Source: an uncultured bacterium (GTDB lineage: Bacteria > Patescibacteriota > Minisyncoccia > Moranbacterales > UBA2206). From it: DNA of 64,000 nt. Position numbers and translations under genes: made by a program. Positions 1 through 60,044 of the stretch are shown in pieces. The notes under the pieces were generated by a model, which worked only from the letters and a program-made list of their open reading frames with translations, was not told where the DNA came from and did no database searches. Numbering within the stretch: the stretch's first letter is position 1; the number at the start of each line of letters is the position of its first letter. The stretch covers positions 77,249-141,248 of the forward strand of contig CAIKZD010000017.1 of NCBI GenBank assembly GCA_903831805.1, read 5' to 3'.

Positions 1-1981
1 AATTTTTGGCGTGGTGGTTTATTTTTTGGGCTTAGTCTCATCGGCGCTTTTGGCGTTTTTCGGCCAGTCTTTCAAAAAAGGTGCGCACCTGTTCATTTTT
101 TCTAACGCCATAGGATTTTTATCCGGGCTGGGATATCTTTTAGCTAACCCAGAAGATAATTTTGTGTTAGCCCATTTCACTTGGTTCTTCCAATTCGCGC
201 CGCGCTTGAATTTTTTGGCGGCCATTTTCTTTTTGGTTATCAGTGGCGTGTCTTTTCTGGTGGGAGTGTATAGTTTGCGCTATCTGGAGCTATACGAAAA
301 AGAATATGATCCACGCTTAGTGCAATTCCTGATGGCTTTTTTTGTTTTAGGGATGCAGGGCGTGCTTCTGGCCAACAATACTTTTGCCTTCCTCTTTTTT
401 TGGGAAGTGATGTCGATGACTTCTTTCTTTTTAGTCATGACCGACAAGAAACCAGAATCAATCCAAGCCGCTTTTCTCTATTTCATCATGACGCACTTGG
501 GCGCGTCAGCCATTTTGGGAGGTTTTTTGATTTTGGGCGGCGGATCATTTATTTTTAATTTGAGTGACATCCACAACGCTTCGCTCAATCTTTCGCCGGC
601 GATGCGCGCCATGGCGTTCTTGCTTTTTGTGTTCGGTTTCGGTTCCAAAGCCGGGCTGGTGCCGTTTCATGTGTGGCTACCGGAAGCTCATCCGCAAGCG
701 CCCAGTAATATCTCAGCCATGATGAGCGGCTTGATGTTGAAAATTGCCGTGTATGGTTTTATTACCATCATGCTAAATCTCGCCCATGTTCCAGCTTGGG
801 CGGGTCTGATCGTGCTATTTCTGGGTCTCTTGTCCGGCGTGGTGGGGGCCTTGTACGCGGCCGTGGAAAGAGATATGAAAAAAGCTTTGGCGTATAGCAG
901 TATCGAAAATATGGGCATTATTTTTACGATGTTGGGGCTGGCAGTGTATTTGTTAGCCTTGGACAACTATACGCTTATCGCCTATTCGATTATGGCCTTT
1001 GCCATTTTCCATGCTATAAGTCATGCGTTCTTCAAAACGGCGCTATTCCTCAGCAGCGGAGTGGTGATAAATCGTGTGCACACCAAAAGTTTGGAAATGA
1101 TGGGCGGCTTGGCCAAACTGATGCCGTTTTTCAGTTTTGCCTTTTTGTTGGCTATTCTGGCTTCATTGCCATTGCCATTGTTTGGCACCTTCTATGGCGA
1201 GTGGGGACTGATCCAGAATATTTTGTCTTTATTGGGCGAGGCAAGGATGGGCGCTGGATCTCTCATCGTCCTGCTTATTATTCTTTCGGTCGTGGCACTG
1301 ATCAGCGGGTTGGCCATTTTCGCCATGGTAAAAGTTTTCGCGATGTCGATGTTGGGCTTGCCGCACAATCTGCCTACGGAAAAAAGAGCAGAAAAAAGGG
1401 ATTATCTTTTAGTCACTCCTATCTTATCCTTAGGAGCTGGCGTTCTGTTGCTCGGGTTTTTGGCTAAATTTTTTATCCCACATATAATTATCAGTCTACA
1501 GGCCAGTTCTTCTTTGACGCCGCTGCCGATTTTTTCTCCGGTGCCGCTGAAACTTTCTTCCATGGCGGTTTCCGGTGCAATCATAGTTTTTGGACTGCTG
1601 ATATACCTGGGCCAGAAAATTTTTATGACTAGCAAGCGAGAAAGATTTTATCACACCTGGGATTGCGGCCAAGCCATTGACGCAACGATGCAATATAGTG
1701 CCACCGCCTTTTCTGCGCCCATCAGATTTTTCTTCTTGACTTTCATCGGTCGGAAAAAAATAATGCAATCAGTTGCAGTTCTAGAAACTAATCCATGGAT
1801 TAGGAAATATAATTTTCGCTTATCTATTCGTCCGAATTGGAGTCATATATTTTACGAACCGATTGCGAAAGGCTTGCTCATAGTGGCGAAAAAAATCCGT
1901 TTCATCCAAAATGGGCGCATCCAATATTATATTTTGTTTTTACTCCTTGCTCTAATTGGCACTTTAATTTTCGCTTTATGA
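1..1981 (+). CDS. NuoL/HyfB/HycC-like proton-translocating membrane subunit (5' end runs off window)
   Basis: 656+ aa polytopic membrane protein; conserved complex-I antiporter-like motif WLPEAHPQAPSNISAMMSGLMLKIAVYGF; ORF is open to the window edge. Confidence 0.8.
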   Translation, partial: IFGVVVYFLGLVSSALLAFFGQSFKKGAHLFIFSNAIGFLSGLGYLLANPEDNFVLAHFTWFFQFAPRLNFLAAIFFLVISGVSFLVGVYSLRYLELYEKEYDPRLVQFLMAFFVLGMQGVLLANNTFAFLFFWEVMSMTSFFLVMTDKKPESIQAAFLYFIMTHLGASAILGGFLILGGGSFIFNLSDIHNASLNLSPAMRAMAFLLFVFGFGSKAGLVPFHVWLPEAHPQAPSNISAMMSGLMLKIAVYGFITIMLNLAHVPAWAGLIVLFLGLLSGVVGALYAAVERDMKKALAYSSIENMGIIFTMLGLAVYLLALDNYTLIAYSIMAFAIFHAISHAFFKTALFLSSGVVINRVHTKSLEMMGGLAKLMPFFSFAFLLAILASLPLPLFGTFYGEWGLIQNILSLLGEARMGAGSLIVLLIILSVVALISGLAIFAMVKVFAMSMLGLPHNLPTEKRAEKRDYLLVTPILSLGAGVLLLGFLAKFFIPHIIISLQASSSLTPLPIFSPVPLKLSSMAVSGAIIVFGLLIYLGQKIFMTSKRERFYHTWDCGQAIDATMQYSATAFSAPIRFFFLTFIGRKKIMQSVAVLETNPWIRKYNFRLSIRPNWSHIFYEPIAKGLLIVAKKIRFIQNGRIQYYILFLLLALIGTLIFAL

Positions 1982-3573
1982 ACCCCATCATTGCCACGTT
2001 GATCCAACTGATTTTTGTTCTGCTCGTTGCGCCATATGCTGCGGGTTTGGTGAAATTTTTGAAAGCCCGCTTACAAGGTCGGGACGGCGCGTCACCTTTT
2101 TTATTCTACGTGATGCTTTTCACCTTGCTGCGAAAAGAAATGGTGATCTCGGAAACCGCTTCGTGGATTTTTCGCGCGGTGCCGTTTGTGGTTTTTGGCA
2201 GTACGGTTTTTTTGGCGGCTATCTTGCCGCTTATCTTTACGGGAGCATATCTTGCACCCCTCAGTGATTTTTTGGTGGTGGCGGGCGTGTTGGCTGTGGG
2301 GTCAATATTTTTAGTCTTGGGCGGCCTGGATACTGGCAGCGCTTTTGGCGGGATGGGGTCGAGCCGAGAAATGACCATTGCCACTCTCCTCGAGCCGGTT
2401 ATAGTTATGGTTTTTGCCACTATCAGCTTTGCCACTAAGCAAGCTACCCTGGATGGCATGCTTCGCGTGCAAACCGGTTTTCATCCTTACCTGATTTTGA
2501 CAATCGCGGCGTTAATCCTAGTGGCCTTGGCGGAAAACGCGCGCTATCCGGTGGATAATCCCGCGACGCACTTGGAATTAACGATGGTGCATGAAGCCAT
2601 GATCTTGGAATACAGCGGGAAATATTTAGCTCTTCTGGAATATGCGGCAGCTATAAAATTAGCGGTCTTTTCTTTGCTGATTGCTAATTTTATTTTTCCA
2701 GCGTCACTCATTGGGGCGCCAGCCTTGGGCGGCGGCGCAATAGCTGCCGGATTATTTTGGAGTACGATAAAAATCATAGCGGTCATGATGGCTTTGGCGG
2801 CTTTGGAATCAGTTTTGACCAAGATGCGCTTTTATCGCATGTCGGAATATTTTTCTATTGCATATGTCGTGGCATTTCTCGGAATGATTACGGTTCTGCT
2901 CGCGACCTTTACGGAAGTCTCTTTGCAATATCACACTTTGTTTTCTCTTTTAACTGTCGTATGCGTGGTGTTGCTTTTCGGCAAAGTGCGCCTGAAAGCT
3001 ATTTTGCGCTACTACGCTGTTTCTTCTTTGGCCATCGCCGCTCTGGCTTGGAGTCTGGTGTCACTCGCTCCGGCCGAAGAAAAAATGCATCTGTGGTTAT
3101 TTGCGATTTTCACCATCCTTACTAAAACTTTCGCCGTGCCTTATGTGATCAATCGGTCCAGCCACGCTAAAAAAAGTCTCACTAACTTATCATCATTCCT
3201 CCGTCCAGGGAAAAGTTATTTCCTGGCAGTGGCGCTTCTAGTGGTGACTTATTTCGTCTTAAGACACATCTCGATCACCGGTCTCATCAGATGGAATTCA
3301 TTGCTGTACGCTTCCATAACCCTCATTGTTTTAGGTATTGCGATGATGATTATTAAGAAAAATATATTTTCTCAGATCGTGGGACTTTTGATTATTGAAA
3401 ATGGAATTGCGGTTTTCGTGCTGGCCACCATTGGCTCCCTCCCTATTGTTATTGAGTTTGGAATTTTTGCTGTGACCGTCGTGACTGCCTATATTCTGGC
3501 TATCCTGAGTGCCCGCATTGCGGAGCTTTGCGGCAGTGCGGACACGGACGATTTGCGCGGACTAACTGAATAA
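1978..3573 (+). CDS. HycD/HyfC (NuoH-like) membrane subunit with ~200-aa C-terminal multi-TM extension (possibly HyfE-like)
   Basis: ATGA overlap with upstream stop gives MNPIIATLIQ... start; ENARYPVDNPATHLELTMVHEAMILEYSGKYLALLEYAAAIKL matches the NuoH/HycD loop motif; the track ORF from 1837 is an upstream over-extension. Confidence 0.75.
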   Translation: MNPIIATLIQLIFVLLVAPYAAGLVKFLKARLQGRDGASPFLFYVMLFTLLRKEMVISETASWIFRAVPFVVFGSTVFLAAILPLIFTGAYLAPLSDFLVVAGVLAVGSIFLVLGGLDTGSAFGGMGSSREMTIATLLEPVIVMVFATISFATKQATLDGMLRVQTGFHPYLILTIAALILVALAENARYPVDNPATHLELTMVHEAMILEYSGKYLALLEYAAAIKLAVFSLLIANFIFPASLIGAPALGGGAIAAGLFWSTIKIIAVMMALAALESVLTKMRFYRMSEYFSIAYVVAFLGMITVLLATFTEVSLQYHTLFSLLTVVCVVLLFGKVRLKAILRYYAVSSLAIAALAWSLVSLAPAEEKMHLWLFAIFTILTKTFAVPYVINRSSHAKKSLTNLSSFLRPGKSYFLAVALLVVTYFVLRHISITGLIRWNSLLYASITLIVLGIAMMIIKKNIFSQIVGLLIIENGIAVFVLATIGSLPIVIEFGIFAVTVVTAYILAILSARIAELCGSADTDDLRGLTE

Positions 3574-3641
3574 TTTATTTTAAGTTTAGGACTTAAACAT
3601 TTTGCCGACTGCAAATGCGTAAGTCTTATAGCTAATTTTTT

Positions 3642-5147
3642 ATGAATCTCTTTTTCTTAAGCCTTCCATTCCTAGTCGCTTTTCTTTCTGCGGTCGTCGC
3701 CAAGACGGAAAAAGTAGCACGGAGAAGTAGCCTAGTCTTTTCGGTGATTGGCGGGCTGGCCTCAATTTTTTTCGCTTGGCCGTATCTCTTTAATCCCCAA
3801 AGCCAATTGCTGGGGACGTGGTTCCGGATGGACAGTTTTTCGGCTTTGATGGTTCTGCTCATCGCGTGCATATATATTTTTGCCTTGATCGTGAGCGTGC
3901 GCTACATCGGACATGAGTATGGCGAAAAAATTATTACTTTTTCCCAATACAAAATGTATTTTGCACTCTTCCAGCTGTTCGTGCTTTGCATGCTGGTGGT
4001 TGTTTTGACCAATAATGTACTGTTACTCTGGCTGGCACTGGAAGGCACGACGCTGTCGTCCACTTTTCTGGTGGGATTGTATCGTAAAAAAACCAGTATG
4101 GAGGCGGCTTGGAAATATATGATTATCTGTTCTACGGGCATCAGTCTTGGGCTTTTGGGTATTTTGCTTTTAAGTTACGGAGCCCACGTCGGTGGCGTAG
4201 CGGAAGGCAATATTTTTCTTTTGAATAAATTGGCGGAAAGTGCGCATCTCATACCGATAAATATTATCAAATTGGCTTTCATCTTTATCTTTATTGGGTT
4301 TGGCACTAAAATCGGCTTGGCGCCGATGCACACCTGGCTGCCGGACGCGCACAGCAAAGCGCCATCACCCATCTCGGCCATTTTTTCTGCCGTACTTTTG
4401 ACGGTGGCGCTTTATGCCGTTTTGCGTTTCAAATTTATTGCTGACAATGCTTTTTTGAGTTCGGTTTGGACGAATCATTTATTTTTGATTTTTGGCTTTC
4501 TTTCCATCATGCTTGCGGCGCTTATGATGCTTATTCAAACCAATTATAAAAGGATGTTGGCCTATTCGAGCATTGAACATATGGGCATCATCATTTTTTC
4601 TGTTGGACTCTCGCCGCTTGGTGCGGTGGCTGCCCTCATGCATATACTGGGACATACTTTTGCTAAGTCGATGTTATTCTTCGGAGCAGGAGAAATTTTG
4701 ATTCGTTGGAAAACTACCAAGATCGCCAAGATAAAAAATATGTTCGAAGAGGCGAGATATACCAGTATACTCTTTCTTTTGGGCATCGTTATGATTGTGG
4801 CTATCCCGCCGTCCGCTTTGTTCGTGAGTGAATATGCCATGTTCGCTCAAGTGATTGTTTTGCATCCGGTGGTGTCCATTCTTTTGTTCATCGCCTTGGG
4901 CATCATCGCTTACGCTATGCTTTCACTCAGCGTGAAAATGATTTTTGCGAAGGAGCCCGCCTCCGCTACGAGTTCTGGCGCGGCGAAGCCCGCCCTCGCT
5001 GAAGCTACGGTGGGCAAGGAAAAATGGAATGTTACGCACACCATCATGAGCGTGGAATTGTGCATGGTAGTGTTTTTGGCTTGGTGGCTTACGACGCCGG
5101 GATCGATGGGTGTTCTCGGCAATATAACGAAAACTTTTATTTATTAA
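3642..5147 (+). CDS. NuoM/NuoN/HyfF-like antiporter-type membrane subunit
   Basis: 501 aa; WLPDAHSKAPSPISAIFSAVLLTVALYAVLRF motif; polytopic. Confidence 0.8.
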   Translation: MNLFFLSLPFLVAFLSAVVAKTEKVARRSSLVFSVIGGLASIFFAWPYLFNPQSQLLGTWFRMDSFSALMVLLIACIYIFALIVSVRYIGHEYGEKIITFSQYKMYFALFQLFVLCMLVVVLTNNVLLLWLALEGTTLSSTFLVGLYRKKTSMEAAWKYMIICSTGISLGLLGILLLSYGAHVGGVAEGNIFLLNKLAESAHLIPINIIKLAFIFIFIGFGTKIGLAPMHTWLPDAHSKAPSPISAIFSAVLLTVALYAVLRFKFIADNAFLSSVWTNHLFLIFGFLSIMLAALMMLIQTNYKRMLAYSSIEHMGIIIFSVGLSPLGAVAALMHILGHTFAKSMLFFGAGEILIRWKTTKIAKIKNMFEEARYTSILFLLGIVMIVAIPPSALFVSEYAMFAQVIVLHPVVSILLFIALGIIAYAMLSLSVKMIFAKEPASATSSGAAKPALAEATVGKEKWNVTHTIMSVELCMVVFLAWWLTTPGSMGVLGNITKTFIY

Positions 5148-5168
5148 AAAAATAGCAATTAACAGCAT

Positions 5169-6731
5169 ATGACTATCCAAGAAATTATTGCAGAATTTAA
5201 GGAAAAAATAACTATCGTCAGTGAGAAAAGCGATTTGATAGAAGCTAAAGTTTCTCGGGACGACTTAGCTGAGGTGGCGACAGCTCTGTTTCATGATCAT
5301 AAATTACCATTGTCCCTGATGTTCGCCACGGACAACCGTACGGAAGACGGTAGTTTTGGAGTGCATACTGTTTTCAGTGTTCCCGCCGAAAAGAAGTGGC
5401 TGAAAATTTCGGTGGAAGTTCCGGCTTCTGATCCGCAATATCCCGCGCTCACCAGAACTATTATGGCGGCGCATTGGTATGAAAGATATTTGCGCGACAT
5501 GTTCGGCATCACGCCCGTTGGCCATCCTGATTTGCGCCGTTTGGTGCAGCATGAAAATATGCCAGAAGGCATTCATCCATTGTGCAAGGATTTCTTGTGG
5601 AACACTAAGTTGGAAAAAGCTAATGTGCCGTATCCGATGCATCATGTGACTGGTGACGGGATTTTTGAAATTCCGGTCGGACCGATCCATGCCGGTATCA
5701 TTGAGCCGGGCCATTTTCGTTTCAATGTGGCCGGCGAAAGAATTTTAACCTTGGAAGGCAAACTATTTTTTACGCATAAAGGCGTGGAAAAATTGTTGGA
5801 AGGCAAGAATATCATGGAGGCACTGCCGTTCATTGAAAGGATTTCTGGTGACGCAGCGGCTTCGCACGCTTTAGCGTACTGCGAAGCGGTGGAGAAAATC
5901 GCCGGTTGCGCGGTCCCGCGGCGGGCGCAAATGTTGCGCGCAATTCTCACCGAATGCGAAAGAATCACTATGCACATTCATGACCTGGCCAATATCGGTG
6001 GCATGGGCACGGGGTATAGTTTTATCGCAGCTAATGGTTTTCGTATCAAGGAAAGAATGATGCGTCTTTCGCAAGAGATTTGCGGCAATCGTTTTTGGCG
6101 CGGCCTGATTGTCCCGGGCGGGATAAAAAAAGATATCACTGATGAGGATTTGAAAAAAATATTAAACGTATCTCAAGCGGCCTGGAAAGAAATGGAAAAA
6201 ATTACCATCATCGCGCTCGACAGCGAAGGCTTTTTGGATCGCTTGCAATATACGGGCGAACTGCCAAAAGAGGCGGCCGAAGCCTTTGGGGCGGTCGGTC
6301 CGGCGGCGCGCGCGTCCAAGGTCAGTCGCGATGTGCGGCGCGATCATCCTTATGCCTCTTACGCCGAATTTCCGATCAAAGTCATCACTAAAAAAAGTCT
6401 GGATGTTTTTGCGCGTTATCGTATGCGGATTAAAGAGATTGAACAATCACTGGTTCTGATGCAAACTTTAGTGGAAAAAATGCCAGCTGGAGATATTATG
6501 GAAAAAGTGGCAGTGCGCGATGGCTTTGCACTTGGCGCCGTGGAATCATGGCGCGGAGAAATCATCTGTGCGCTGCAAATTAAAAACGGCGTGATTGAAA
6601 GATGTGTGCCGCGTGATCCCTCTTTTTGCAACTGGGCCCTCTTCGGCATTATGGGTCCCGGCAACATCGTGCCGGATTTCCCACTCATCAACAAAAGTTT
6701 GAATCTGTCCTATTCCGGGACGGACTTGTAA
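5169..6731 (+). CDS. NuoC-NuoD / HycE-like fused catalytic-module subunit lacking NiFe-binding cysteines
   Basis: N-terminal 30-kDa (NuoC)-like domain, then a 49-kDa/large-subunit-like domain (PVGPIHAGIIEPGHFRF). Expected L1 motif ERxCGxC reads ERISGDAAASH; C-terminal DPCxxC reads RDPSFCNW. Confidence 0.75.
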   Translation: MTIQEIIAEFKEKITIVSEKSDLIEAKVSRDDLAEVATALFHDHKLPLSLMFATDNRTEDGSFGVHTVFSVPAEKKWLKISVEVPASDPQYPALTRTIMAAHWYERYLRDMFGITPVGHPDLRRLVQHENMPEGIHPLCKDFLWNTKLEKANVPYPMHHVTGDGIFEIPVGPIHAGIIEPGHFRFNVAGERILTLEGKLFFTHKGVEKLLEGKNIMEALPFIERISGDAAASHALAYCEAVEKIAGCAVPRRAQMLRAILTECERITMHIHDLANIGGMGTGYSFIAANGFRIKERMMRLSQEICGNRFWRGLIVPGGIKKDITDEDLKKILNVSQAAWKEMEKITIIALDSEGFLDRLQYTGELPKEAAEAFGAVGPAARASKVSRDVRRDHPYASYAEFPIKVITKKSLDVFARYRMRIKEIEQSLVLMQTLVEKMPAGDIMEKVAVRDGFALGAVESWRGEIICALQIKNGVIERCVPRDPSFCNWALFGIMGPGNIVPDFPLINKSLNLSYSGTDL

Positions 6732-6926: not shown

Positions 6927-9509
6927 ATGGAAGAAAACGCTAAATACAACCCTAATGAAATCGAGGCCAAATGGCAGAAATTTTGGCTTGAAAAAGGGAT
7001 TTCTCTGATAGATAAGGATGATGTGACCAAAGAGAAATTCTATATTTTGGATATGTTTCCCTATCCGTCGGGGGCGGGGTTGCATATGGGGCACACTGAG
7101 AGCTATACGGCTAGTGATGCGGTTTATCGCTATAAGAAACTGCAGGGGTTCAATGTGCTGCATCCACAAGGTTTTGACGCTTTTGGGTTGCCAGCGGAAA
7201 ATTACGCCATCAAGACTGGCATTTCGCCGGTGGAAACGACTAAAATAAATATAATCAATTATATCCGGCAGATGCAGTCTTTGGGTTTCGCCTATGATTT
7301 TTCTGAGCAGGCAGTGACGTGCGATCCGGAATATTATAAGTGGACGCAATGGATCTTTGGAGAATTTTTCAAGCAGGGGTTGGTGTACAAAAAAACATCC
7401 AAGACTAATTGGTGTCCTTCGTGTCAAACGGTGATTGCCAATGAACAGGTAGTGGATGGCAAATGCGAAAGATGCGGGACAGAAATCGAACAAAAAGAAG
7501 TGCCGAGTTGGTTTTTTAAAATTACGGATTTTGCCGAAGAACTTATTAATGGTTTGGACAATGTTGATTGGCCTGAATATACCAAGAAGAATCAGAAAAA
7601 TTGGATAGGGAAAAGTGAAGGAGTGACGGTGAAGTTTCAAATTATGCCCTCTCCTGTCCGGAGTACCGGACATCCTCTCCCGAGTACAGGAGAGGATGAA
7701 TGTATTGAAGTTTTTACGACTCGGGTGGATACGATTTTCGGTTGCACCTATGTCGTTCTGGCGCCGGAGAATGAATTGGTTTCTGTGTTGAAGGAACAAT
7801 GCGAGAATAAGGATGAAATAGAAAAATATATCGAGCAGGCGAAAAACAAGACTGAACTGAATCGGATGGAGGCCAAGGAAAAAACCGGCGTGGAGCTGAA
7901 AGGCGTGCGAGCCATCAATCCGTTCAACGATGAAAACGTCCCTGTTTATATTGCGGACTATGTCTTAGCAAGCTATGGCACCGGTGCAGTGATGGCCGTG
8001 CCGGTGCATGACGAACGGGATTGGGAGTTTGCGGATAACCACAATTTGCCGAAAAAAGGCGTTATTATTCCTAGACCTATAAAATCAGGCTTACTCATCG
8101 GTGATGAAATTGATAATGTCGATGAGTCGTATGAACATTTTGACAATTACGCAAATAAAAAAAAGGATAATATTAGAAAAGGCATAGAAATTTTTGTTGA
8201 AGACGGGACCGTAATTGATTCCGGAGAGTTTAATAAATTAAATTCTGACGAGGCGCGGGAAAAAATGGCGGTGTGGCTGGAAGAAAAAAAGCTGGGCAAG
8301 AAAATCGTGAATTATCGTTTGCGGGATTGGTCTATTTCACGGCAACGTTATTGGGGCTGTCCGATCCCGATTGTCTATTCGCCGGACGGTGAAGCGCATC
8401 TGGTGCCGGAAGAGCATCTGCCATGGAAACTGCCAATGGACGTGGACTTTGTGCCGACTGGTATTTCACCTTTGGCCAAATCCGCGGAACTGAAAAAACG
8501 TACGGAAGAAATTTTTGGAGCGGGTTGGACTGCGGAATATGACACGATGGACACCTTTGTCGATTCATCGTGGTATTTTTTGCGTTATCCTGATGCGCAT
8601 AATGACCAAGAATTCTGTTCCAAAGAGAGGCTGAAAAAATGGTTGCCGGTAGACGTGTATATCGGCGGCGCGGAACACACCTACATGCATCTTTTGTTTG
8701 CTAGATTTTTCGTGAAAGCCATGCATCGGATCGGCATTCTTGATTTTGACGAACCGTTTTTGAAGTTGCGGCATCAGGGGATGGTATTGGATAAGGAAGG
8801 AAAAAAGATGTCAAAGTCCAAGGGGAACGTTATCAACCCGGATGATATGGTGGCAAAATTTGGGGCAGACAGTGTGCGGACCTATATGCTTTTTGCGACG
8901 CCACTGGAAGATGCGGTGATGTGGAATGAGAATAATATTGTCGGAGTGAGGAGGTTTTTGGAGAAAGTTTGGAAATTGCAATACAAAATTACAAATTACA
9001 AATTACAAATTACAAATAAAATCCAAAATCCAAATGATCAAAATAAAAAACTAGTTTCGCTCATTAATAAAACGATCAAAAAAGTCGGGGAGGACATTGA
9101 AAATTTCCGGTTCAATACGGCAGTGAGTCAGTTGATGATACTCGTGAATGAGATGGAAAAACAGACAGAAATAGTCGCTGCTGATTATGAAAAATTACTG
9201 CTTTTGCTAGCGTCTTTCGCGCCGCATATTGCGGAGGAAATTTTCCAAAAAGTTTTGGGTCACGAGGAATCAATATTTTTGCAGAAGTGGCCAGAGTTTG
9301 AGGAAGCGTTGACCAAAGACGAAACAATAAATCTAGTATTGCAAGTGAATGGCAAGGTGCGTGATATGGTATCAGTAGGCGCGGACATTGCAGAAGAGGA
9401 GGCGAAAAAAATCGCGCTGGTCAGTGAGAAAATCCAAAAGCATATCGGCGGCAAAGAGGTCAAGAAAATTATTTTTGTTCCAGGTAAATTGGTTAATATT
9501 GTAATCTAA
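6927..9509 (+). CDS. leuS: Leucyl-tRNA synthetase
   Basis: 860 aa; HMGH (HIGH) and KMSKS motifs; N-terminus YNPNEIEAKWQKFW; CP1 editing domain TTRVDTIFG; contains two atypical in-frame insertions (see findings). Confidence 0.97.
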   Translation: MEENAKYNPNEIEAKWQKFWLEKGISLIDKDDVTKEKFYILDMFPYPSGAGLHMGHTESYTASDAVYRYKKLQGFNVLHPQGFDAFGLPAENYAIKTGISPVETTKINIINYIRQMQSLGFAYDFSEQAVTCDPEYYKWTQWIFGEFFKQGLVYKKTSKTNWCPSCQTVIANEQVVDGKCERCGTEIEQKEVPSWFFKITDFAEELINGLDNVDWPEYTKKNQKNWIGKSEGVTVKFQIMPSPVRSTGHPLPSTGEDECIEVFTTRVDTIFGCTYVVLAPENELVSVLKEQCENKDEIEKYIEQAKNKTELNRMEAKEKTGVELKGVRAINPFNDENVPVYIADYVLASYGTGAVMAVPVHDERDWEFADNHNLPKKGVIIPRPIKSGLLIGDEIDNVDESYEHFDNYANKKKDNIRKGIEIFVEDGTVIDSGEFNKLNSDEAREKMAVWLEEKKLGKKIVNYRLRDWSISRQRYWGCPIPIVYSPDGEAHLVPEEHLPWKLPMDVDFVPTGISPLAKSAELKKRTEEIFGAGWTAEYDTMDTFVDSSWYFLRYPDAHNDQEFCSKERLKKWLPVDVYIGGAEHTYMHLLFARFFVKAMHRIGILDFDEPFLKLRHQGMVLDKEGKKMSKSKGNVINPDDMVAKFGADSVRTYMLFATPLEDAVMWNENNIVGVRRFLEKVWKLQYKITNYKLQITNKIQNPNDQNKKLVSLINKTIKKVGEDIENFRFNTAVSQLMILVNEMEKQTEIVAADYEKLLLLLASFAPHIAEEIFQKVLGHEESIFLQKWPEFEEALTKDETINLVLQVNGKVRDMVSVGADIAEEEAKKIALVSEKIQKHIGGKEVKKIIFVPGKLVNIVI
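8983..9050. repeat. In-frame (CAAATTA)n-containing ~65-nt element within leuS
   Basis: acaaaattacaaattacaaattacaaattacaaataaaatccaaaatccaaatgatcaaaataaaaaa; encodes KITNYKLQITNKIQNPNDQNKK. Confidence 0.8.
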
Positions 9510-40105: not shown

Positions 40106-40227
40106 GTCAAATTTTCAATTATCAATTTGCAATTTTCAATGAATTTTCAATGCTCAAATTTTCAATTGATCATTGAGATATTGATAATTTATAAATTGAT
40201 TGAAAATTGATCATTGTAAATTGAATA
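40106..40227. repeat. AT-rich array of AATTTTCAAT / ATTGATCATTG direct and inverted repeats between dprA and topA
   Basis: At least 4 direct copies of (a)attttcaat, one inverted attgaaaatt, two copies of attgatcattg. Confidence 0.7.
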
Positions 40228-46115: not shown

Positions 46116-47261
46116 TTGGAATTTATGAATTCAAAAAAGCCAAAAATTCTAATTGGAATGAGTGGCGGGGTGGATTCTTCTTCTGCGGCCGCCCTGCTCA
46201 AAAACCAAGACTTCCAAGTGAAAGGTCTTTTTTTGAGGCTGTATGGCGAGGAAGAAAAAACGTTGAAAAATATCCAGGATGTGGAAAAAGTCTGCCAAAA
46301 ATTGGACATACCGCTGCAGATCAAAGATGTCAGGCCAAGATTCAAAAAAGAAGTCATGGGCTATTTTTTGGAGGAATATGCATCTGGGCGCACGCCCAAT
46401 CCGTGTGTTTTTTGCAATGAAAATTTTAAGTTTAAAATATTATTAGAAGAAGCGAAAAAGGCGGGAATAGATTATGTGGCGACGGGTCACTACGCGAGAA
46501 TAACCAAAATACAAGAAACGATAAACAAGCAAATTACAAATTACAAATTACAAATTACAAATAAATTTCAAAATCAAAATGTCAAATTAAAGACGGTCTT
46601 CAGATTAAGAACTGCTAAAGATAAAAATAAAGATCAGTCATATTTCCTGTACAGATTGGGACAAAAGGAATTAGCTAGGATTATTTTCCCATTGGGAGAA
46701 TATGAGAAAACCCAAGTGCGGGCGTTGGCGAAAACGTTCGGTCTTGCGGTGAGTGAAAAAAAAGAATCACAGGATGTGTGTTTCATGGCGGGCGTGACTT
46801 TGGACGAATTTTTGAAAAAAAATCTGAAATTGAAAAAAGGCAAGATTGTTGATGCTACTGGGAAAATTTTAGGCATCCATCATGGTTTGCCGCTCTATAC
46901 GATTGGACAGCGAAAAGGCATTCATATCGGCGGCACCGGTCCATACTATGTCGTAGCCAAGGATTTGAAAAAAAATATTTTAACAGTTTCCAATGATCTG
47001 CAAAAATTGCCATTATTTTATAAAGTTGCTATTTTGGAAAAGGTGAGTTGGGTCAGCGCTATACCGCCGCGCTTGGCTCGGGTCTTGGCGCGCAGCCGAT
47101 ACCGAAATCCCTTGGTTTATGCTATAATCAAAAAGCATGGAGCAAATAATGCCGAATGCGAAATAGAGTTTGAAAAACCGGAGAAAGCTCTGGCCAGCGG
47201 ACAGTCAGTGGTGTTTTATGCGAAAACCGGAGAGGTGATCGGCGGCGGGGTGATTGCATGA
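46116..47261 (+). CDS. mnmA: tRNA-specific 2-thiouridylase MnmA
   Basis: PP-loop GMSGGVDSS; GHYAR...KDQSYFL block; carries the heptamer-repeat insertion QITNYKLQITNKFQNQN. Confidence 0.9.
   Translation: MEFMNSKKPKILIGMSGGVDSSSAAALLKNQDFQVKGLFLRLYGEEEKTLKNIQDVEKVCQKLDIPLQIKDVRPRFKKEVMGYFLEEYASGRTPNPCVFCNENFKFKILLEEAKKAGIDYVATGHYARITKIQETINKQITNYKLQITNKFQNQNVKLKTVFRLRTAKDKNKDQSYFLYRLGQKELARIIFPLGEYEKTQVRALAKTFGLAVSEKKESQDVCFMAGVTLDEFLKKNLKLKKGKIVDATGKILGIHHGLPLYTIGQRKGIHIGGTGPYYVVAKDLKKNILTVSNDLQKLPLFYKVAILEKVSWVSAIPPRLARVLARSRYRNPLVYAIIKKHGANNAECEIEFEKPEKALASGQSVVFYAKTGEVIGGGVIA
46528..46592. repeat. In-frame (CAAATTA)n-containing ~65-nt element within mnmA
   Basis: caaattacaaattacaaattacaaattacaaataaatttcaaaatcaaaatgtcaaattaaag; near-identical to leuS 8983..9050. 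Confidence 0.8.
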
Positions 47262-55857: not shown

Positions 55858-55926
55858 TTAGCCATTAGCCATTAGCCATTAGCCGTTAGAGCTAAGAGCT
55901 AAGAGCTAAAAGCTAAAAGCTAAAAT
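55858..55926. repeat. Heptamer tandem repeats (AGCCATT)x4 + (AGCTAAG/AGCTAAA)x5 immediately 5' of rpsM
   Basis: ttagccattagccattagccattagccgttagagctaagagctaagagctaaaagctaaaagctaaaat ATG. Confidence 0.85.
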
Positions 55927-57472: not shown

Positions 57473-57538
57473 AGCCGTTAGCCGTTAGCCTTTAGCTCTT
57501 AGGAGCTAACAGCTAATAACTAACAGCTAATAACTAAT
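57473..57538. repeat. Heptamer tandem repeats (AGCCGTT / AGCTAAC-like) immediately 5' of rpoA
   Basis: agccgttagccgttagcctttagctcttaggagctaacagctaataactaacagctaataactaat ATG; related to the block at 55858..55926. Confidence 0.85.
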
Positions 57539-58513
57539 ATGCAAATATCTCTTCCTCAAAAACCAAAATATACCCCGACTGACGAAAAAACGGGCTTATT
57601 TGAAATTGAAGGATGCTATCCGGGCTATGGCACTACTTTGGGTAATGCTATTCGTCGCGTGCTCTTGTCTTCTATGCCTGGAGCGGCCGTCACATCAGTC
57701 AAAATTAAGAATGCCAAACATGAATTCTCAACTTTGCCGAATGTTATGGAAGATATCATTCAGATAATCCTTAATTTGAAACAAGTCCGATTCAGATTGT
57801 TTGATGAAGGACCGGTCAAGGTCAATTTGAAAGTGAAAGGTGAAAAGGTCATTACGGCTGCAATGATCGAATGTCCATCGAACCTGGAAGTGGTGAACTC
57901 TGATGCGCATATTGCGACCATCACCGGAGCCAAAGGCGAGTTGGAAATAGAAATGGAAATTTCGGCCGGTATCGGTTATGTTCCGGTGGAGCAACAAGAG
58001 CGCAAGGAAAAAGAAGTGGGCGTCATCGCTTTGGACGCAATCTATACTCCGGTGCGCCGAGTGAACTATACTATTTCCAATATGCGCGTGGGCAAGAAAA
58101 CCGATTTTGAAAAAATCAGCTTGGAGGTTATGACTGATGGCAGCGTTTCTCCCTTGGATGCTTTTTCTAAGGCCGTAGACATCCTGGTGAAGCAATTTTC
58201 TACATTAGTTGAAATGGAAGCACCGGCGAAAAAGACAAAAGTGACAGAAGTGTCCGCTCCGGAAGTCGTGATCGAAAAAGAAGTGGAAACGGTGGTCGCT
58301 TCCGACCCCAAGAGCGTTGAAATAACCGAACTGAAAAATTTATCCACCCGTACTTTGAATGTTTTGGAAAAAGGCAAGATTCGCAAGGTGGGTGACATCA
58401 TTAAATTGGATGAAGCCGCGCTTATGGAACTGGAAGGCATGGGCGCTAAGGGGGTAAAAGAGATTAGAAAAGCGATCGGTGATTTCGGATTGAATTTGAA
58501 GAAAGCAGAATAA
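57539..58513 (+). CDS. rpoA: DNA-directed RNA polymerase alpha subunit
   Basis: N-terminal dimerisation domain (GYGTTLGNAIRRVLLSS) and C-terminal alphaCTD. Confidence 0.95.
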   Translation: MQISLPQKPKYTPTDEKTGLFEIEGCYPGYGTTLGNAIRRVLLSSMPGAAVTSVKIKNAKHEFSTLPNVMEDIIQIILNLKQVRFRLFDEGPVKVNLKVKGEKVITAAMIECPSNLEVVNSDAHIATITGAKGELEIEMEISAGIGYVPVEQQERKEKEVGVIALDAIYTPVRRVNYTISNMRVGKKTDFEKISLEVMTDGSVSPLDAFSKAVDILVKQFSTLVEMEAPAKKTKVTEVSAPEVVIEKEVETVVASDPKSVEITELKNLSTRTLNVLEKGKIRKVGDIIKLDEAALMELEGMGAKGVKEIRKAIGDFGLNLKKAE

Positions 58514-59793: not shown

Positions 59794-59833
59794 ACTAGCG
59801 CCACAGACCAAACACACAATCGACTATTCCCTA

Positions 59834-59867
59834 GGCGGAGTCTCTCGTAAGAGGACTCCGCCTTTTT
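59834..59867 (+). terminator. Rho-independent terminator after rpsI
   Basis: ggcggagtctc tcgtaa gaggactccgcc ttttt. Confidence 0.7.
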
Positions 59868-60044
59868 GTGAGGACACGCGAATTGAACGAATGGGAGGCG
59901 AATAAAAACGAATATGTGCAACGCGTAGAGACGCAGCACTGCCTCGTCTCTACGGTGGCGAGAAATATGTTATCCACAGGCTGGATGGTTGACGGGGATA
60001 GTTAAGATGATATAATATCATTACTAAGTATTAATAAAATAAAA

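What the first reader, a model, noticed from the sequence alone, without database searches (positions are those of the whole stretch)
7640..7705. GC-rich palindromic in-frame insertion inside leuS (RPE-like)
Within the CP1 region of leuS, the segment ccctctcctgt-ccggagtaccggac-atcctctcccgagt-acaggagagg forms a perfect 10-bp inverted repeat (CCTCTCCTGT/ACAGGAGAGG) enclosing a second palindrome (GTCCGGAGTACCGGAC). It is markedly more GC-rich than its surroundings. It encodes MPSPVRSTGHPLPSTGEDECIE where orthologous LeuS proteins have about 8 residues. This resembles Rickettsia palindromic elements, which insert in frame into essential genes.
Basis: partly seen in the sequence, partly recalled or inferred. 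Interest (0 to 1): 0.55.

Follow-up and report, generated by a model that had tools for sequence, protein, structure and literature searches.

The report
Dispersed GC-rich repeat inside leuS
A roughly 50-base GC-rich, hairpin-forming repeat of a type previously described only between genes (the PIT/BoxC/"triplex motif" family) sits in frame inside the essential leucyl-tRNA synthetase gene of an ultra-small CPR bacterium, where it is most likely read through as a floppy 14-residue surface loop, and near-identical copies sit inside other essential genes of related bacteria.

Summary
Window 7647-7698 is a GC-rich (62.5% vs 43%) nested palindrome in frame in leuS. It adds 14 residues at a beta-hairpin turn just before the editing-site TTR motif.

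It is not a local oddity. Near-identical copies (35-nt core about 97-100% identical) occur in other CPR-like contigs. In-frame hosts are another, distant LeuS (same loop), GluRS, ArgRS, RNase HII, DnaE, PriA and HypF, in several frames and on both strands. Other copies are intergenic. One 15-kb stretch holds three copies.

The inner hairpin shows compensatory changes. The element has the three-block architecture (C-block, G-block, mirror G-block) of the known PIT/BoxC/TM intrastrand-triplex repeats, with an extra hairpin nested in the second loop.

The LeuS site is a hypervariable hotspot: inserts of 0 to about 220 aa, and a 30-bp indel between 99.9%-identical alleles.

The element is not an RPE.

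Best reading: a selfish or neutral repeat tolerated in a disordered loop. Caveats: only one copy in about 72 kb of this genome, no filled/empty pair for this family, and the mobilisation mechanism is unknown.

The parts
6927..9509 (+). leuS (leucyl-tRNA synthetase, 860 aa), the host gene of the insertion
   Evidence: ORF. 8000 LeuS homologs, Pfam tRNA-synt_1 / Anticodon_1, Parcubacteria/Moranbacteria names. Matches to solved LeuRS structures.
7647..7698 (+). The inserted GC-rich composite repeat element (family profile match 7647-7700). Translated as P241-SPVRSTGHPLPSTGE(D), a net +14 aa relative to the baseline loop.
   Evidence: (nhmmer E = 9e-16).
7648..7655 (+). Box 1, CCTCTCCT. On the minus strand this is AGGAGAGG, the third (mirror) purine block.
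   Evidence: Three-block test: G-block 2 is a perfect mirror of G-block 1 with 0 mismatches.
7656..7672 (+). Inner hairpin GTCCGG-AGTA-CCGGAC(A), a nested module that occupies the second loop of the triplex-type motif
   Evidence: Folds. Covariation across 13 copies: 100% of cells paired, two pairs with four pair types each, 0/500 shuffles. Absent from the simple form at the same GluRS site (L249).
7673..7680 (+). Box 2, TCCTCTCC, the 5' arm of hairpin 2. On the minus strand this is G-block 1, GGAGAGGA.
   Evidence: (I2).
7681..7688 (+). Loop of hairpin 2 (CGAGTACA), a recurrent long-loop subtype also found in GluRS copies
   Evidence: L248 and L249 carry the same GAGTACA loop.
7689..7696 (+). 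G-rich arm GGAGAGGA. On the minus strand this is the C-block.

Best explanation
Window 7647-7698 is one copy of a small (about 45-50 nt), GC-rich, non-coding-type dispersed repeat that has landed inside the leuS reading frame.

Architecture. The element has three blocks: pyrimidine block, purine block, mirror purine block. This is the layout of the PIT/BoxC/TM 'intrastrand triplex motif' repeats known from E. coli, cyanobacteria and more than 260 other genomes. It differs in having a 7-bp hairpin nested in the second loop.

Why it is tolerated. The conserved 35-nt core has no stop codon in any of the six frames, and the net addition here is a multiple of three. The ribosome therefore most likely reads straight through it. 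The product would be a Pro/Ser/Thr/Gly-rich, probably disordered loop at the turn of a beta-hairpin at the entrance of the CP1 editing domain. That position tolerates anything from 0 to about 220 extra residues in relatives.

What is shown: family membership, in-frame copies in many essential genes, several frames and both strands, intergenic copies, multiple copies within one genome, nucleotide conservation far above that of the host gene, hairpin covariation, and loop location.

What is inferred: (1) the element is a selfish or neutral passenger rather than a LeuS adaptation; (2) copies spread or are maintained through a single-stranded folded DNA intermediate, since the structure is what is conserved, by an enzyme or repair/recombination route not yet identified; (3) such repeats help make this loop an indel hotspot, as TM repeats do for intergenic DNA in E. 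coli.
For: Extended identity of the 35-nt core in unrelated contexts.

In-frame hosts confirmed by Pfam: GluRS, ArgRS, HypF, Fpg, a DUF2341 protein and a CCA-adding enzyme (upstream copy); RNase HII, DnaE and PriA.

Four of six reading frames and both strands are used, and the conserved 35-nt core is open in all six frames.

Three copies lie in one 15-kb stretch, L037.

Window and L090 LeuS are 60% identical in protein and 45% at third codon positions, yet the element core is 97% identical (100% at third positions) and is the best of 834 windows.

Element-bearing LeuS genes are not monophyletic. The closest relatives (81-86% identity) carry other inserts.

The L248 GluRS copy is about 94% identical to the window's element, including its loop.

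Hairpin covariation: 0/500 shuffles reach the observed values.

Three-block mirror criterion met, with E. coli TM_ECO sequences as positive controls. The family is described in PMC4666352.

AlphaFold pLDDT is below 50 for residues 243-256, between strands 229-240 and 259-264. PDB sequence alignments show a 14-residue gap.

Hotspot. A recent 30-bp indel separates alleles that differ by 4 of 2832 nt.
Against: Only one copy was found in about 72 kb of this genome, so dispersal within this particular genome is not shown.

No filled/empty allele pair was found for this family. No target-site duplication or common flank was seen. Mobility is therefore inferred from distribution, not observed.

No candidate mobilising enzyme was identified.

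Zero matches in viral contigs.

The metagenome scan was seeded with a pattern that fixes most hairpin positions, which biases the covariation count. The most variable copies, however, were found independently of that pattern.

Translation of the insert is assumed, not demonstrated.

Nucleotide conservation could also reflect a function of the DNA or RNA structure.
Confidence: 0.8

Rival explanations
1. The nucleic-acid structure itself is functional in place. For example, an mRNA or DNA hairpin/triplex could pause translation at the boundary between the synthetic core and the CP1 editing domain. Alternatively, it could be an adaptive 'instability generator' that diversifies this loop.
For: Nucleotide-level conservation exceeds that of the catalytic motifs. 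Hairpin covariation. The insertion lies at a domain boundary. TM repeats are associated with local small indels in E. coli (PMC4666352), and this loop is hypervariable.
Against: The same element occurs at unrelated positions in many other proteins, on both strands, and in intergenic DNA. Most LeuS orthologs lack any insert at the site. In E. coli, PIT/TM elements showed no promoter or terminator effect, and their polymerase-blocking seen in vitro had no effect in vivo (PMC4666352).
Confidence: 0.1
2. The insert is a lineage-specific protein adaptation of LeuS, a new surface loop selected for its amino-acid sequence, for instance for a partner interaction in the epibiotic lifestyle.
For: Two distant LeuS proteins carry nearly the same peptide at the same loop (PSPVRSTGHPLPSTGE and PSPVRSTGHTLPITGE). 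The insert has been stably maintained across at least 18 assemblies.
Against: The same DNA is read in other frames and on the opposite strand in other proteins, giving unrelated peptides. Third codon positions are 100% conserved, which points to selection or recency at the DNA level rather than the protein level. The insert is predicted to be disordered. The closest relatives have entirely different inserts at this site.
Confidence: 0.06
3. The segment arose in situ by replication slippage, tandem duplication of a 21-nt unit and palindrome-templated mutation in a permissive loop. No dispersed element is involved.
For: A 21-nt direct repeat at 84% identity lies inside the segment. The loop is an indel hotspot with many low-complexity inserts.
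Against: The whole 48-52-nt arrangement, including the GAGTACA loop that creates the apparent duplication, recurs at about 94-100% identity in other genes and genomes.
Confidence: 0.03
4. The segment is an assembly or sequencing artefact, a chimeric join at a repeat.
For: Repeats can seed misassemblies. The source is metagenomic.
Against: Identical sequence on at least 18 contigs from ENA, NCBI, JGI and Logan assemblies of different samples. The reading frame is intact and the flanks are colinear with orthologs.
Confidence: 0.01

Closest known systems
PIT / BoxC / TM_ECO intrastrand-triplex repeats (Hoyne & Maher 2000; Holder et al. 2015, PMC4666352)
   Same: Three consecutive blocks: a C-rich block, its complementary G-rich block and a mirror G-rich block, with CCCTCTCCC / GGGAGAGGG / GGGTGAGGG-type sequences. 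GC-rich, about 35 nt, highly conserved and multi-copy across phyla. Not linked to known transposons, phages or plasmids. Associated with small local indels. The insert in the P0017 LeuS ortholog (L003) is almost a canonical type-A TM. The window's element meets the mirror-block test.
   Different: In E. coli the motif is described as always intergenic. Here it lies in frame in essential genes. Its second loop is 17-19 nt and holds a conserved 7-bp hairpin, against 1-6 nt in the published definition. Its first loop is 8 nt in this copy. Triplex formation by this variant has not been tested.
Rickettsia palindromic elements (RPE; Ogata et al. 2000/2002; reviewed in PMC10969869)
   Same: Palindromic dispersed repeats inserted in frame into many unrelated, often essential, genes. 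They are translated as extra peptide segments compatible with protein function, and they also occur between genes.
   Different: RPEs are about 100-150 bp, restricted to Rickettsia and grouped into about ten families. No sequence relationship is evident here. This element is about 50 nt, comes from CPR bacteria and belongs to a pan-bacterial superfamily.
REP / BIME / REPIN elements mobilised by RAYT transposases (PMC3116915)
   Same: Short (20-40 nt) imperfect palindromes. Modular and mosaic arrangements of hairpin units. Proposed mobilisation through a single-stranded folded intermediate.
   Different: REPs are extragenic, typically occur as inverted doublets, and lie next to a RAYT gene. The copies here are singletons, many are intragenic, and no RAYT has been found. 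I did not see a GTAG-type head (that criterion is from my own knowledge).
Palindromic GC-rich elements in yeast mitochondrial genes ('byps' of Magnusiomyces), GC clusters, and coding palindromes of Nematomorpha mitochondria (PMC6649704)
   Same: Structured palindromic elements residing inside protein-coding genes of compact, AT-biased genomes.
   Different: Byps are skipped by translational bypassing. Nematomorph repeats are long perfect inverted repeats. Here the element is open in frame, so no bypass needs to be invoked.
Small dispersed repeats (SDR) of heterocystous cyanobacteria (Elhai et al. 2008; own knowledge, cited in PMC3116915)
   Same: Very small (about 21-27 nt) mobile-looking repeats that nest within one another and within conserved sequences. 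The mechanism is unknown.
   Different: Different sequences and hosts. Not compared directly here.

Membership tests
PIT/BoxC/TM intrastrand-triplex repeats | Three consecutive blocks on one strand: a pyrimidine block, a complementary purine block and a mirror-image purine block (stem 6-15 nt, at most 1 mismatch) | tested here: met
   Minus strand reads TCCTCTCC / GGAGAGGA / AGGAGAGG: 8-nt blocks with 0 mirror mismatches. E. coli TM_ECO controls give the same pattern.
PIT/BoxC/TM intrastrand-triplex repeats | Short loops (1-6 nt) between the blocks, as in the ITxF definition | tested here: not met
   Loop 1 is 8 nt and loop 2 is 17 nt in the window. Loop 2 is itself a 7-bp hairpin, which would bring the blocks together. 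Sister copies have a 3-nt loop 1.
PIT/BoxC/TM intrastrand-triplex repeats | Sequence similarity of the blocks to CCCTCTCCC / GGGAGAGGG / GGGTGAGGG | tested here: met
   Direct comparison with Table 1 of PMC4666352. Generic-pattern hits in at least 120 genomes of many phyla.
PIT/BoxC/TM intrastrand-triplex repeats | Intergenic location | tested here: not met
   In frame in leuS, and in GluRS, ArgRS, RNase HII, DnaE, PriA and HypF elsewhere. Some copies are intergenic.
PIT/BoxC/TM intrastrand-triplex repeats | Forms a triplex as isolated single-stranded DNA (CD/NMR) | not testable with these tools
   Only hairpin folding could be computed.
Rickettsia palindromic elements (RPE) | Palindromic repeat inserted in frame into many unrelated genes | tested here: met
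Rickettsia palindromic elements (RPE) | Length of about 100-150 bp, membership of the described RPE families, Rickettsia host | tested here: not met
   The element is about 50 nt. The host is Parcubacteria/Moranbacteria. The RPE description comes from PMC10969869. No direct alignment to RPE consensus sequences was possible.
Rickettsia palindromic elements (RPE) | Multiple copies within one genome | tested here: inconclusive
   Three copies in 15 kb of one related genome, L037, but only one copy in about 72 kb of this genome.
REP/REPIN (RAYT-associated) | Extragenic; organised as inverted doublets; adjacent to a RAYT gene | tested here: not met
   Copies are singletons and often intragenic. No RAYT was seen in the gene tables of the loci that were fetched. 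Most of these genomes could not be examined.
MITE | Terminal inverted repeats plus a target-site duplication | tested here: inconclusive
   Box 1 and the G-arm can act as terminal inverted repeats. No duplication or shared flank was seen among 13 copies. No empty site is available for this family.
Rfam RNA families | Match to a curated covariance model | tested here: not met
   There was no match to the element. The only hit was a sub-threshold chance match elsewhere in the region.

The most novel reading that the evidence does not exclude
PIT/TM-type GC-rich repeats, treated in the literature as strictly intergenic curiosities, may be an actively spreading element class in streamlined CPR genomes. 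On this reading they colonise permissive loops of essential proteins (aminoacyl-tRNA synthetases, DnaE, PriA, RNase HII), acquire nested hairpin modules, and, together with an AT-rich heptamer-based in-frame element, cause much of the protein-length variation and the recurrent insertion hotspots seen in these organisms. Near-identical copies across distant genomes would then imply a dedicated, still unknown, structure-recognising mobilisation or horizontal-spread mechanism.
Probability: 0.35. Interest if true: 0.8.

Novelty: new variant of a known kind. Interest (0 to 1): 0.6.

Why it matters
It extends 'selfish DNA inside protein-coding genes', so far best documented for Rickettsia, to the Candidate Phyla Radiation.

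It also ties that behaviour to a repeat class (PIT/BoxC/TM) whose origin, spread and function have been open questions since the 1990s and which was thought to be intergenic.

The system offers handles for those questions: near-identical copies in different genes and genomes, compensatory changes that say which structure matters, nested-module variants at orthologous sites, and hotspots with filled/empty alleles in natural populations.

On the practical side, such inserts inflate and distort alignments of marker proteins such as aaRS and DnaE that are used for CPR phylogeny. They create spurious 'hypothetical' peptides. They could also serve as strain-level markers.

Tried and rejected
**Copies in the window.** I looked for further copies with the full 48-mer at up to 3 mismatches, with arm patterns and with a family HMM. 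Only the leuS copy was found.

**Extending the genome.** I gained 8 kb upstream with no extra copy. No DNA was available beyond the right end.

**Protein-level census of in-frame copies.** This failed three ways. A 50-aa concatenation of the three forward frames found no candidates in the word index. An exhaustive phmmer search with the 30-aa window segment gave 0 hits at E <= 0.001, which is uninformative for a short, compositionally biased query.

**Viral contigs.** 0 exact matches.

**Rfam.** No family matches the element.

**A possible empty-site allele.** I hoped P0121 (100% identical GluRS, 15 aa shorter) was one. It only has a later start call and carries the element.

**The 30-bp indel in P0084 versus P0106.** It is GC-rich but does not fold better than shuffles (z = -0.08). 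I therefore do not claim that every insert at the hotspot is a hairpin element.

**The multi-copy repeat of metagenome Ga0099364.** It shares the 20-nt module TCCTGTCCGGAGTACCGGAC. It was picked up by my search pattern, so homology cannot be inferred.

**In-situ duplication.** Considered and rejected, because the whole arrangement recurs elsewhere.

**Translational bypassing, as in T4 gene 60 or the yeast byps.** Considered, but nothing requires it: the element is open in frame.

**Literature.** Searches for CPR/Patescibacteria together with MITE, REP or palindromic-element terms found nothing relevant.
Full report
**Observation.**
- leuS is the ORF 6927..9509 (+), 860 aa. The organism is a Parcubacteria/Moranbacteria-type CPR bacterium, judging by the source names given to its closest LeuS homologs.
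- The segment holds a perfect 10-nt inverted repeat (7648-7657 / 7686-7695) around the palindrome GTCCGG-AGTA-CCGGAC.
- It also holds a second 10-nt inverted repeat (7671-7680 / 7689-7698) and a 21-nt diverged direct repeat.
- It folds into two adjacent hairpins far better than shuffled controls: RNA z = -3.4 to -3.6, DNA z = -4.3.
- The core is 62.5% GC against 43% for leuS. That is high, but only the top 1.7% of windows in the gene.
- One perfect 10-nt inverted repeat is not unusual in 64 kb: 9 loci observed against 3.4 simulated.
- The identical gene, insert included, was assembled on at least 18 contigs from independent samples and pipelines. An artefact is therefore excluded.

**It is an insertion at a hotspot.**
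- In 120 orthologs, the stretch between the motifs WIGxSxG and (V/I)FTTR has a modal length of 15 aa. Here it is 29 aa.
- E. coli and T. thermophilus LeuRS structures align with a 14-residue gap opposite PSPVRSTGHPLPST. The site is the turn just before the editing-site TTRPDT motif.
- An AlphaFold model (mean pLDDT 74.6) places residues 243-256 at pLDDT below 50, with no secondary structure, between strands 229-240 and 259-264.
- The position is hypervariable across the clade. Some orthologs have no insert. Others have AT-rich low-complexity inserts, several unrelated GC-rich inserts, or whole domains of about 200 aa.
- Two leuS alleles that differ by 4 of 2832 nt differ by exactly one 30-bp GC-rich indel at this position. 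Insertion or deletion here is therefore recent and ongoing.

**It belongs to a dispersed family.**
- No second copy lies in the window or in 8 kb upstream.
- A metagenome scan with the degenerate 21-nt unit returned many chance hits, as expected for 16 specified bases. It also returned a set of contigs sharing far more than the pattern: CCCTCTCC-TGTCCGGAGTACCGGACAT-CCTCTCCC-loop-GGGAGAGGAGGA.
- These contigs are 34-45% GC.
- In-frame copies:

| Host | Locus | Notes |
|---|---|---|
| LeuS (second example) | L090 | same loop as the window |
| GluRS | L078, L248 | same reading frame as the window |
| ArgRS | L037 | a different frame |
| RNase HII | L037 | variant inner hairpin |
| DnaE | L037 | opposite strand |
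| HypF-like protein | L104 | opposite strand |
| PriA | L226 | variant element |

- Further copies are intergenic, or lie just upstream of a start codon.
- L037 carries three copies within 15 kb.
- The GluRS hosts belong to the same Moranbacteria/Patescibacteria clade.
- The L248 copy is about 94% identical to the window's element, including the GAGTACA loop. The apparent 21-nt duplication is therefore a property of a subfamily, not a local event.
- The conserved 35-nt core is open in all six frames. No common flank or target duplication is visible.

**Not simple vertical inheritance.**
- Window and L090 LeuS are 60% identical in protein, 63% in DNA and 45% at third codon positions.
- The element's 12-codon core is 97% identical, and 100% at third positions. 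It is the single most conserved of 834 36-nt windows.
- In a neighbour-joining tree (no bootstrap), the window's LeuS groups with P0002-P0004 (81-86% identical), which carry different inserts. L090 LeuS is the most distant sequence, and P0017, which has a related simpler insert, lies in yet another clade.
- Either the loop was colonised repeatedly, or the DNA sequence is under strong constraint.

**Structure is what is conserved.** Across 13 copies, the 7-bp inner hairpin is paired in 100% of cells. Two of its base pairs each take four different Watson-Crick or wobble forms. None of 500 shuffles, and no slid register, reaches the observed values. The search pattern fixed part of this helix. 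However, the most divergent copies (L154, L037b, L037c) were found independently of it.

**What family it is.**
- The literature identifies this motif as BoxC, PIT or TM_ECO, for example CCCTCTCCC-TGT-GGGAGAGGG-CCG-GGGTGAGGG. It is a repeat found in more than 260 genomes.
- That repeat forms an intrastrand triplex in vitro. In E. coli it is always intergenic. It is not linked to transposons, phages or plasmids, and it has no promoter or terminator activity. It is associated with small local indels (PMC4666352).
- On its minus strand, the window's element reads TCCTCTCC / loop / GGAGAGGA / hairpin loop / AGGAGAGG. This is a perfect three-block mirror arrangement, like the E. coli controls.
- The published loop limit of 1-6 nt is exceeded. 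The second loop holds the conserved hairpin.
- At the GluRS hotspot, one ortholog has the simple form and others the composite form. In LeuS, P0017 has an almost canonical type-A TM. The hairpin therefore behaves as a nested module.

**Interpretation.** The best-supported reading is an in-frame copy of a TM/PIT-class repeat, tolerated because it is stop-free, adds whole codons and sits in a permissive disordered loop. It is not an RPE by size, host or family. Several things remain inferred rather than shown: how copies spread, whether the element does anything for the host, and whether it is translated as assumed. Only one copy was seen in this genome's 72 kb, and no filled/empty pair exists yet for this family.

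**Novelty.** I found no paper describing such elements inside genes of CPR bacteria. The TM paper states an intergenic location. I therefore rate this as a new variant of a known kind: intragenic, composite, and in a new host group.

Noticed in passing
window 8983-9050 (leuS) and 46528-46590 (mnmA, ORF 46116..47261 +): A second, AT-rich in-frame element: an (AAATTAC)n heptamer array plus a conserved tail. About 62 nt are roughly 90% identical between the two genes, with sharp boundaries. It is translated as KITNYKLQITNKIQNPNDQNKK in LeuS and KQITNYKLQITNKFQNQNVKLK in MnmA. The LeuS copy has pLDDT below 50 (residues 691-703). Similar peptides (ISNFQFPISN..., ITNYKLPITNY) occur at the 7640 hotspot in LeuS orthologs and in PriA of L226.
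   Followed up: partly
window 40110-40224, 55858-55925, 57473-57539: Intergenic tandem heptamer arrays (AATTTTC/AATTGAT; TTAGCCA/AGCTAAA; AGCCGTT/AGCTAAC/CTAATAA). They lie upstream of a dprA-like gene, before rpsM, and between rpsD and rpoA. From my own knowledge, they are reminiscent of cyanobacterial STRR heptamer repeats.
   Followed up: no
window 59833-59863 and 59924-59954: Two intergenic GC-rich hairpins. The first is followed by a T-run and looks like a terminator. The second, CGTAGAGACG...CGTCTCTACG, has a GTAG head like REP elements.
   Followed up: no
L246 vs L247 (leuS of P0084 vs P0106), hotspot position: Alleles 99.86% identical differ by one 30-bp GC-rich indel, CCCCAGGCCGTACGCCGTCGGCGGGGCAGG, exactly at the LeuS hotspot. 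This 30-mer is not a significant hairpin.
   Followed up: yes
L006 about 9090-9190 (leuS of P0003, the window's near relative): A different palindrome of about 90 nt (CCCGCCTCGACTCGC...GCGAGTCGACGCGAGGCGGG; fold z = -3.6). It sits at the same LeuS position, nested between AT-rich element-like flanks.
   Followed up: partly
LeuS orthologs P0004-P0120 (many are 940-1010 aa); P0059 and P0110: Many CPR LeuS proteins carry an extra NUDIX (PF00293) or PF10706-annotated domain inserted later in the CP1 region. This window's LeuS lacks it. P0059 and P0110 carry a domain of about 200 aa at the 7640 hotspot itself, and P0059 also carries a PF06821 annotation that most orthologs lack.
   Followed up: no
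L124 (CCA-adding enzyme) and L110 (DUF2341 protein N-terminus): Single proteins contain several different GC-rich motif peptides in frame (for example CHPELVSGS...MPKRVRHD, PSPLLIKERE, PACRQAG) as well as AT-rich ISNFQIPISN. This suggests that many small element families colonise CPR proteins.
   Followed up: no
L020-L117, contigs of metagenomes Ga0099364 and JGI24702J35022: A multi-copy repeat (three copies in the 7.5 kb of L052) shares the 20-nt module TCCTGTCCGGAGTACCGGAC, followed by GCGATTTTCGGAGAAAATCGCCTACC. It was selected by my search pattern, so any relationship to the window's element is unproven.
   Followed up: no
window about 1-6731 (and L250 upstream): Just upstream of leuS lies a cluster encoding Mrp/complex-I-like membrane subunits and a NiFe-hydrogenase/NuoD-like large subunit, next to F-type ATP synthase genes. 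This is notable energy-metabolism content for a CPR genome.
   Followed up: no
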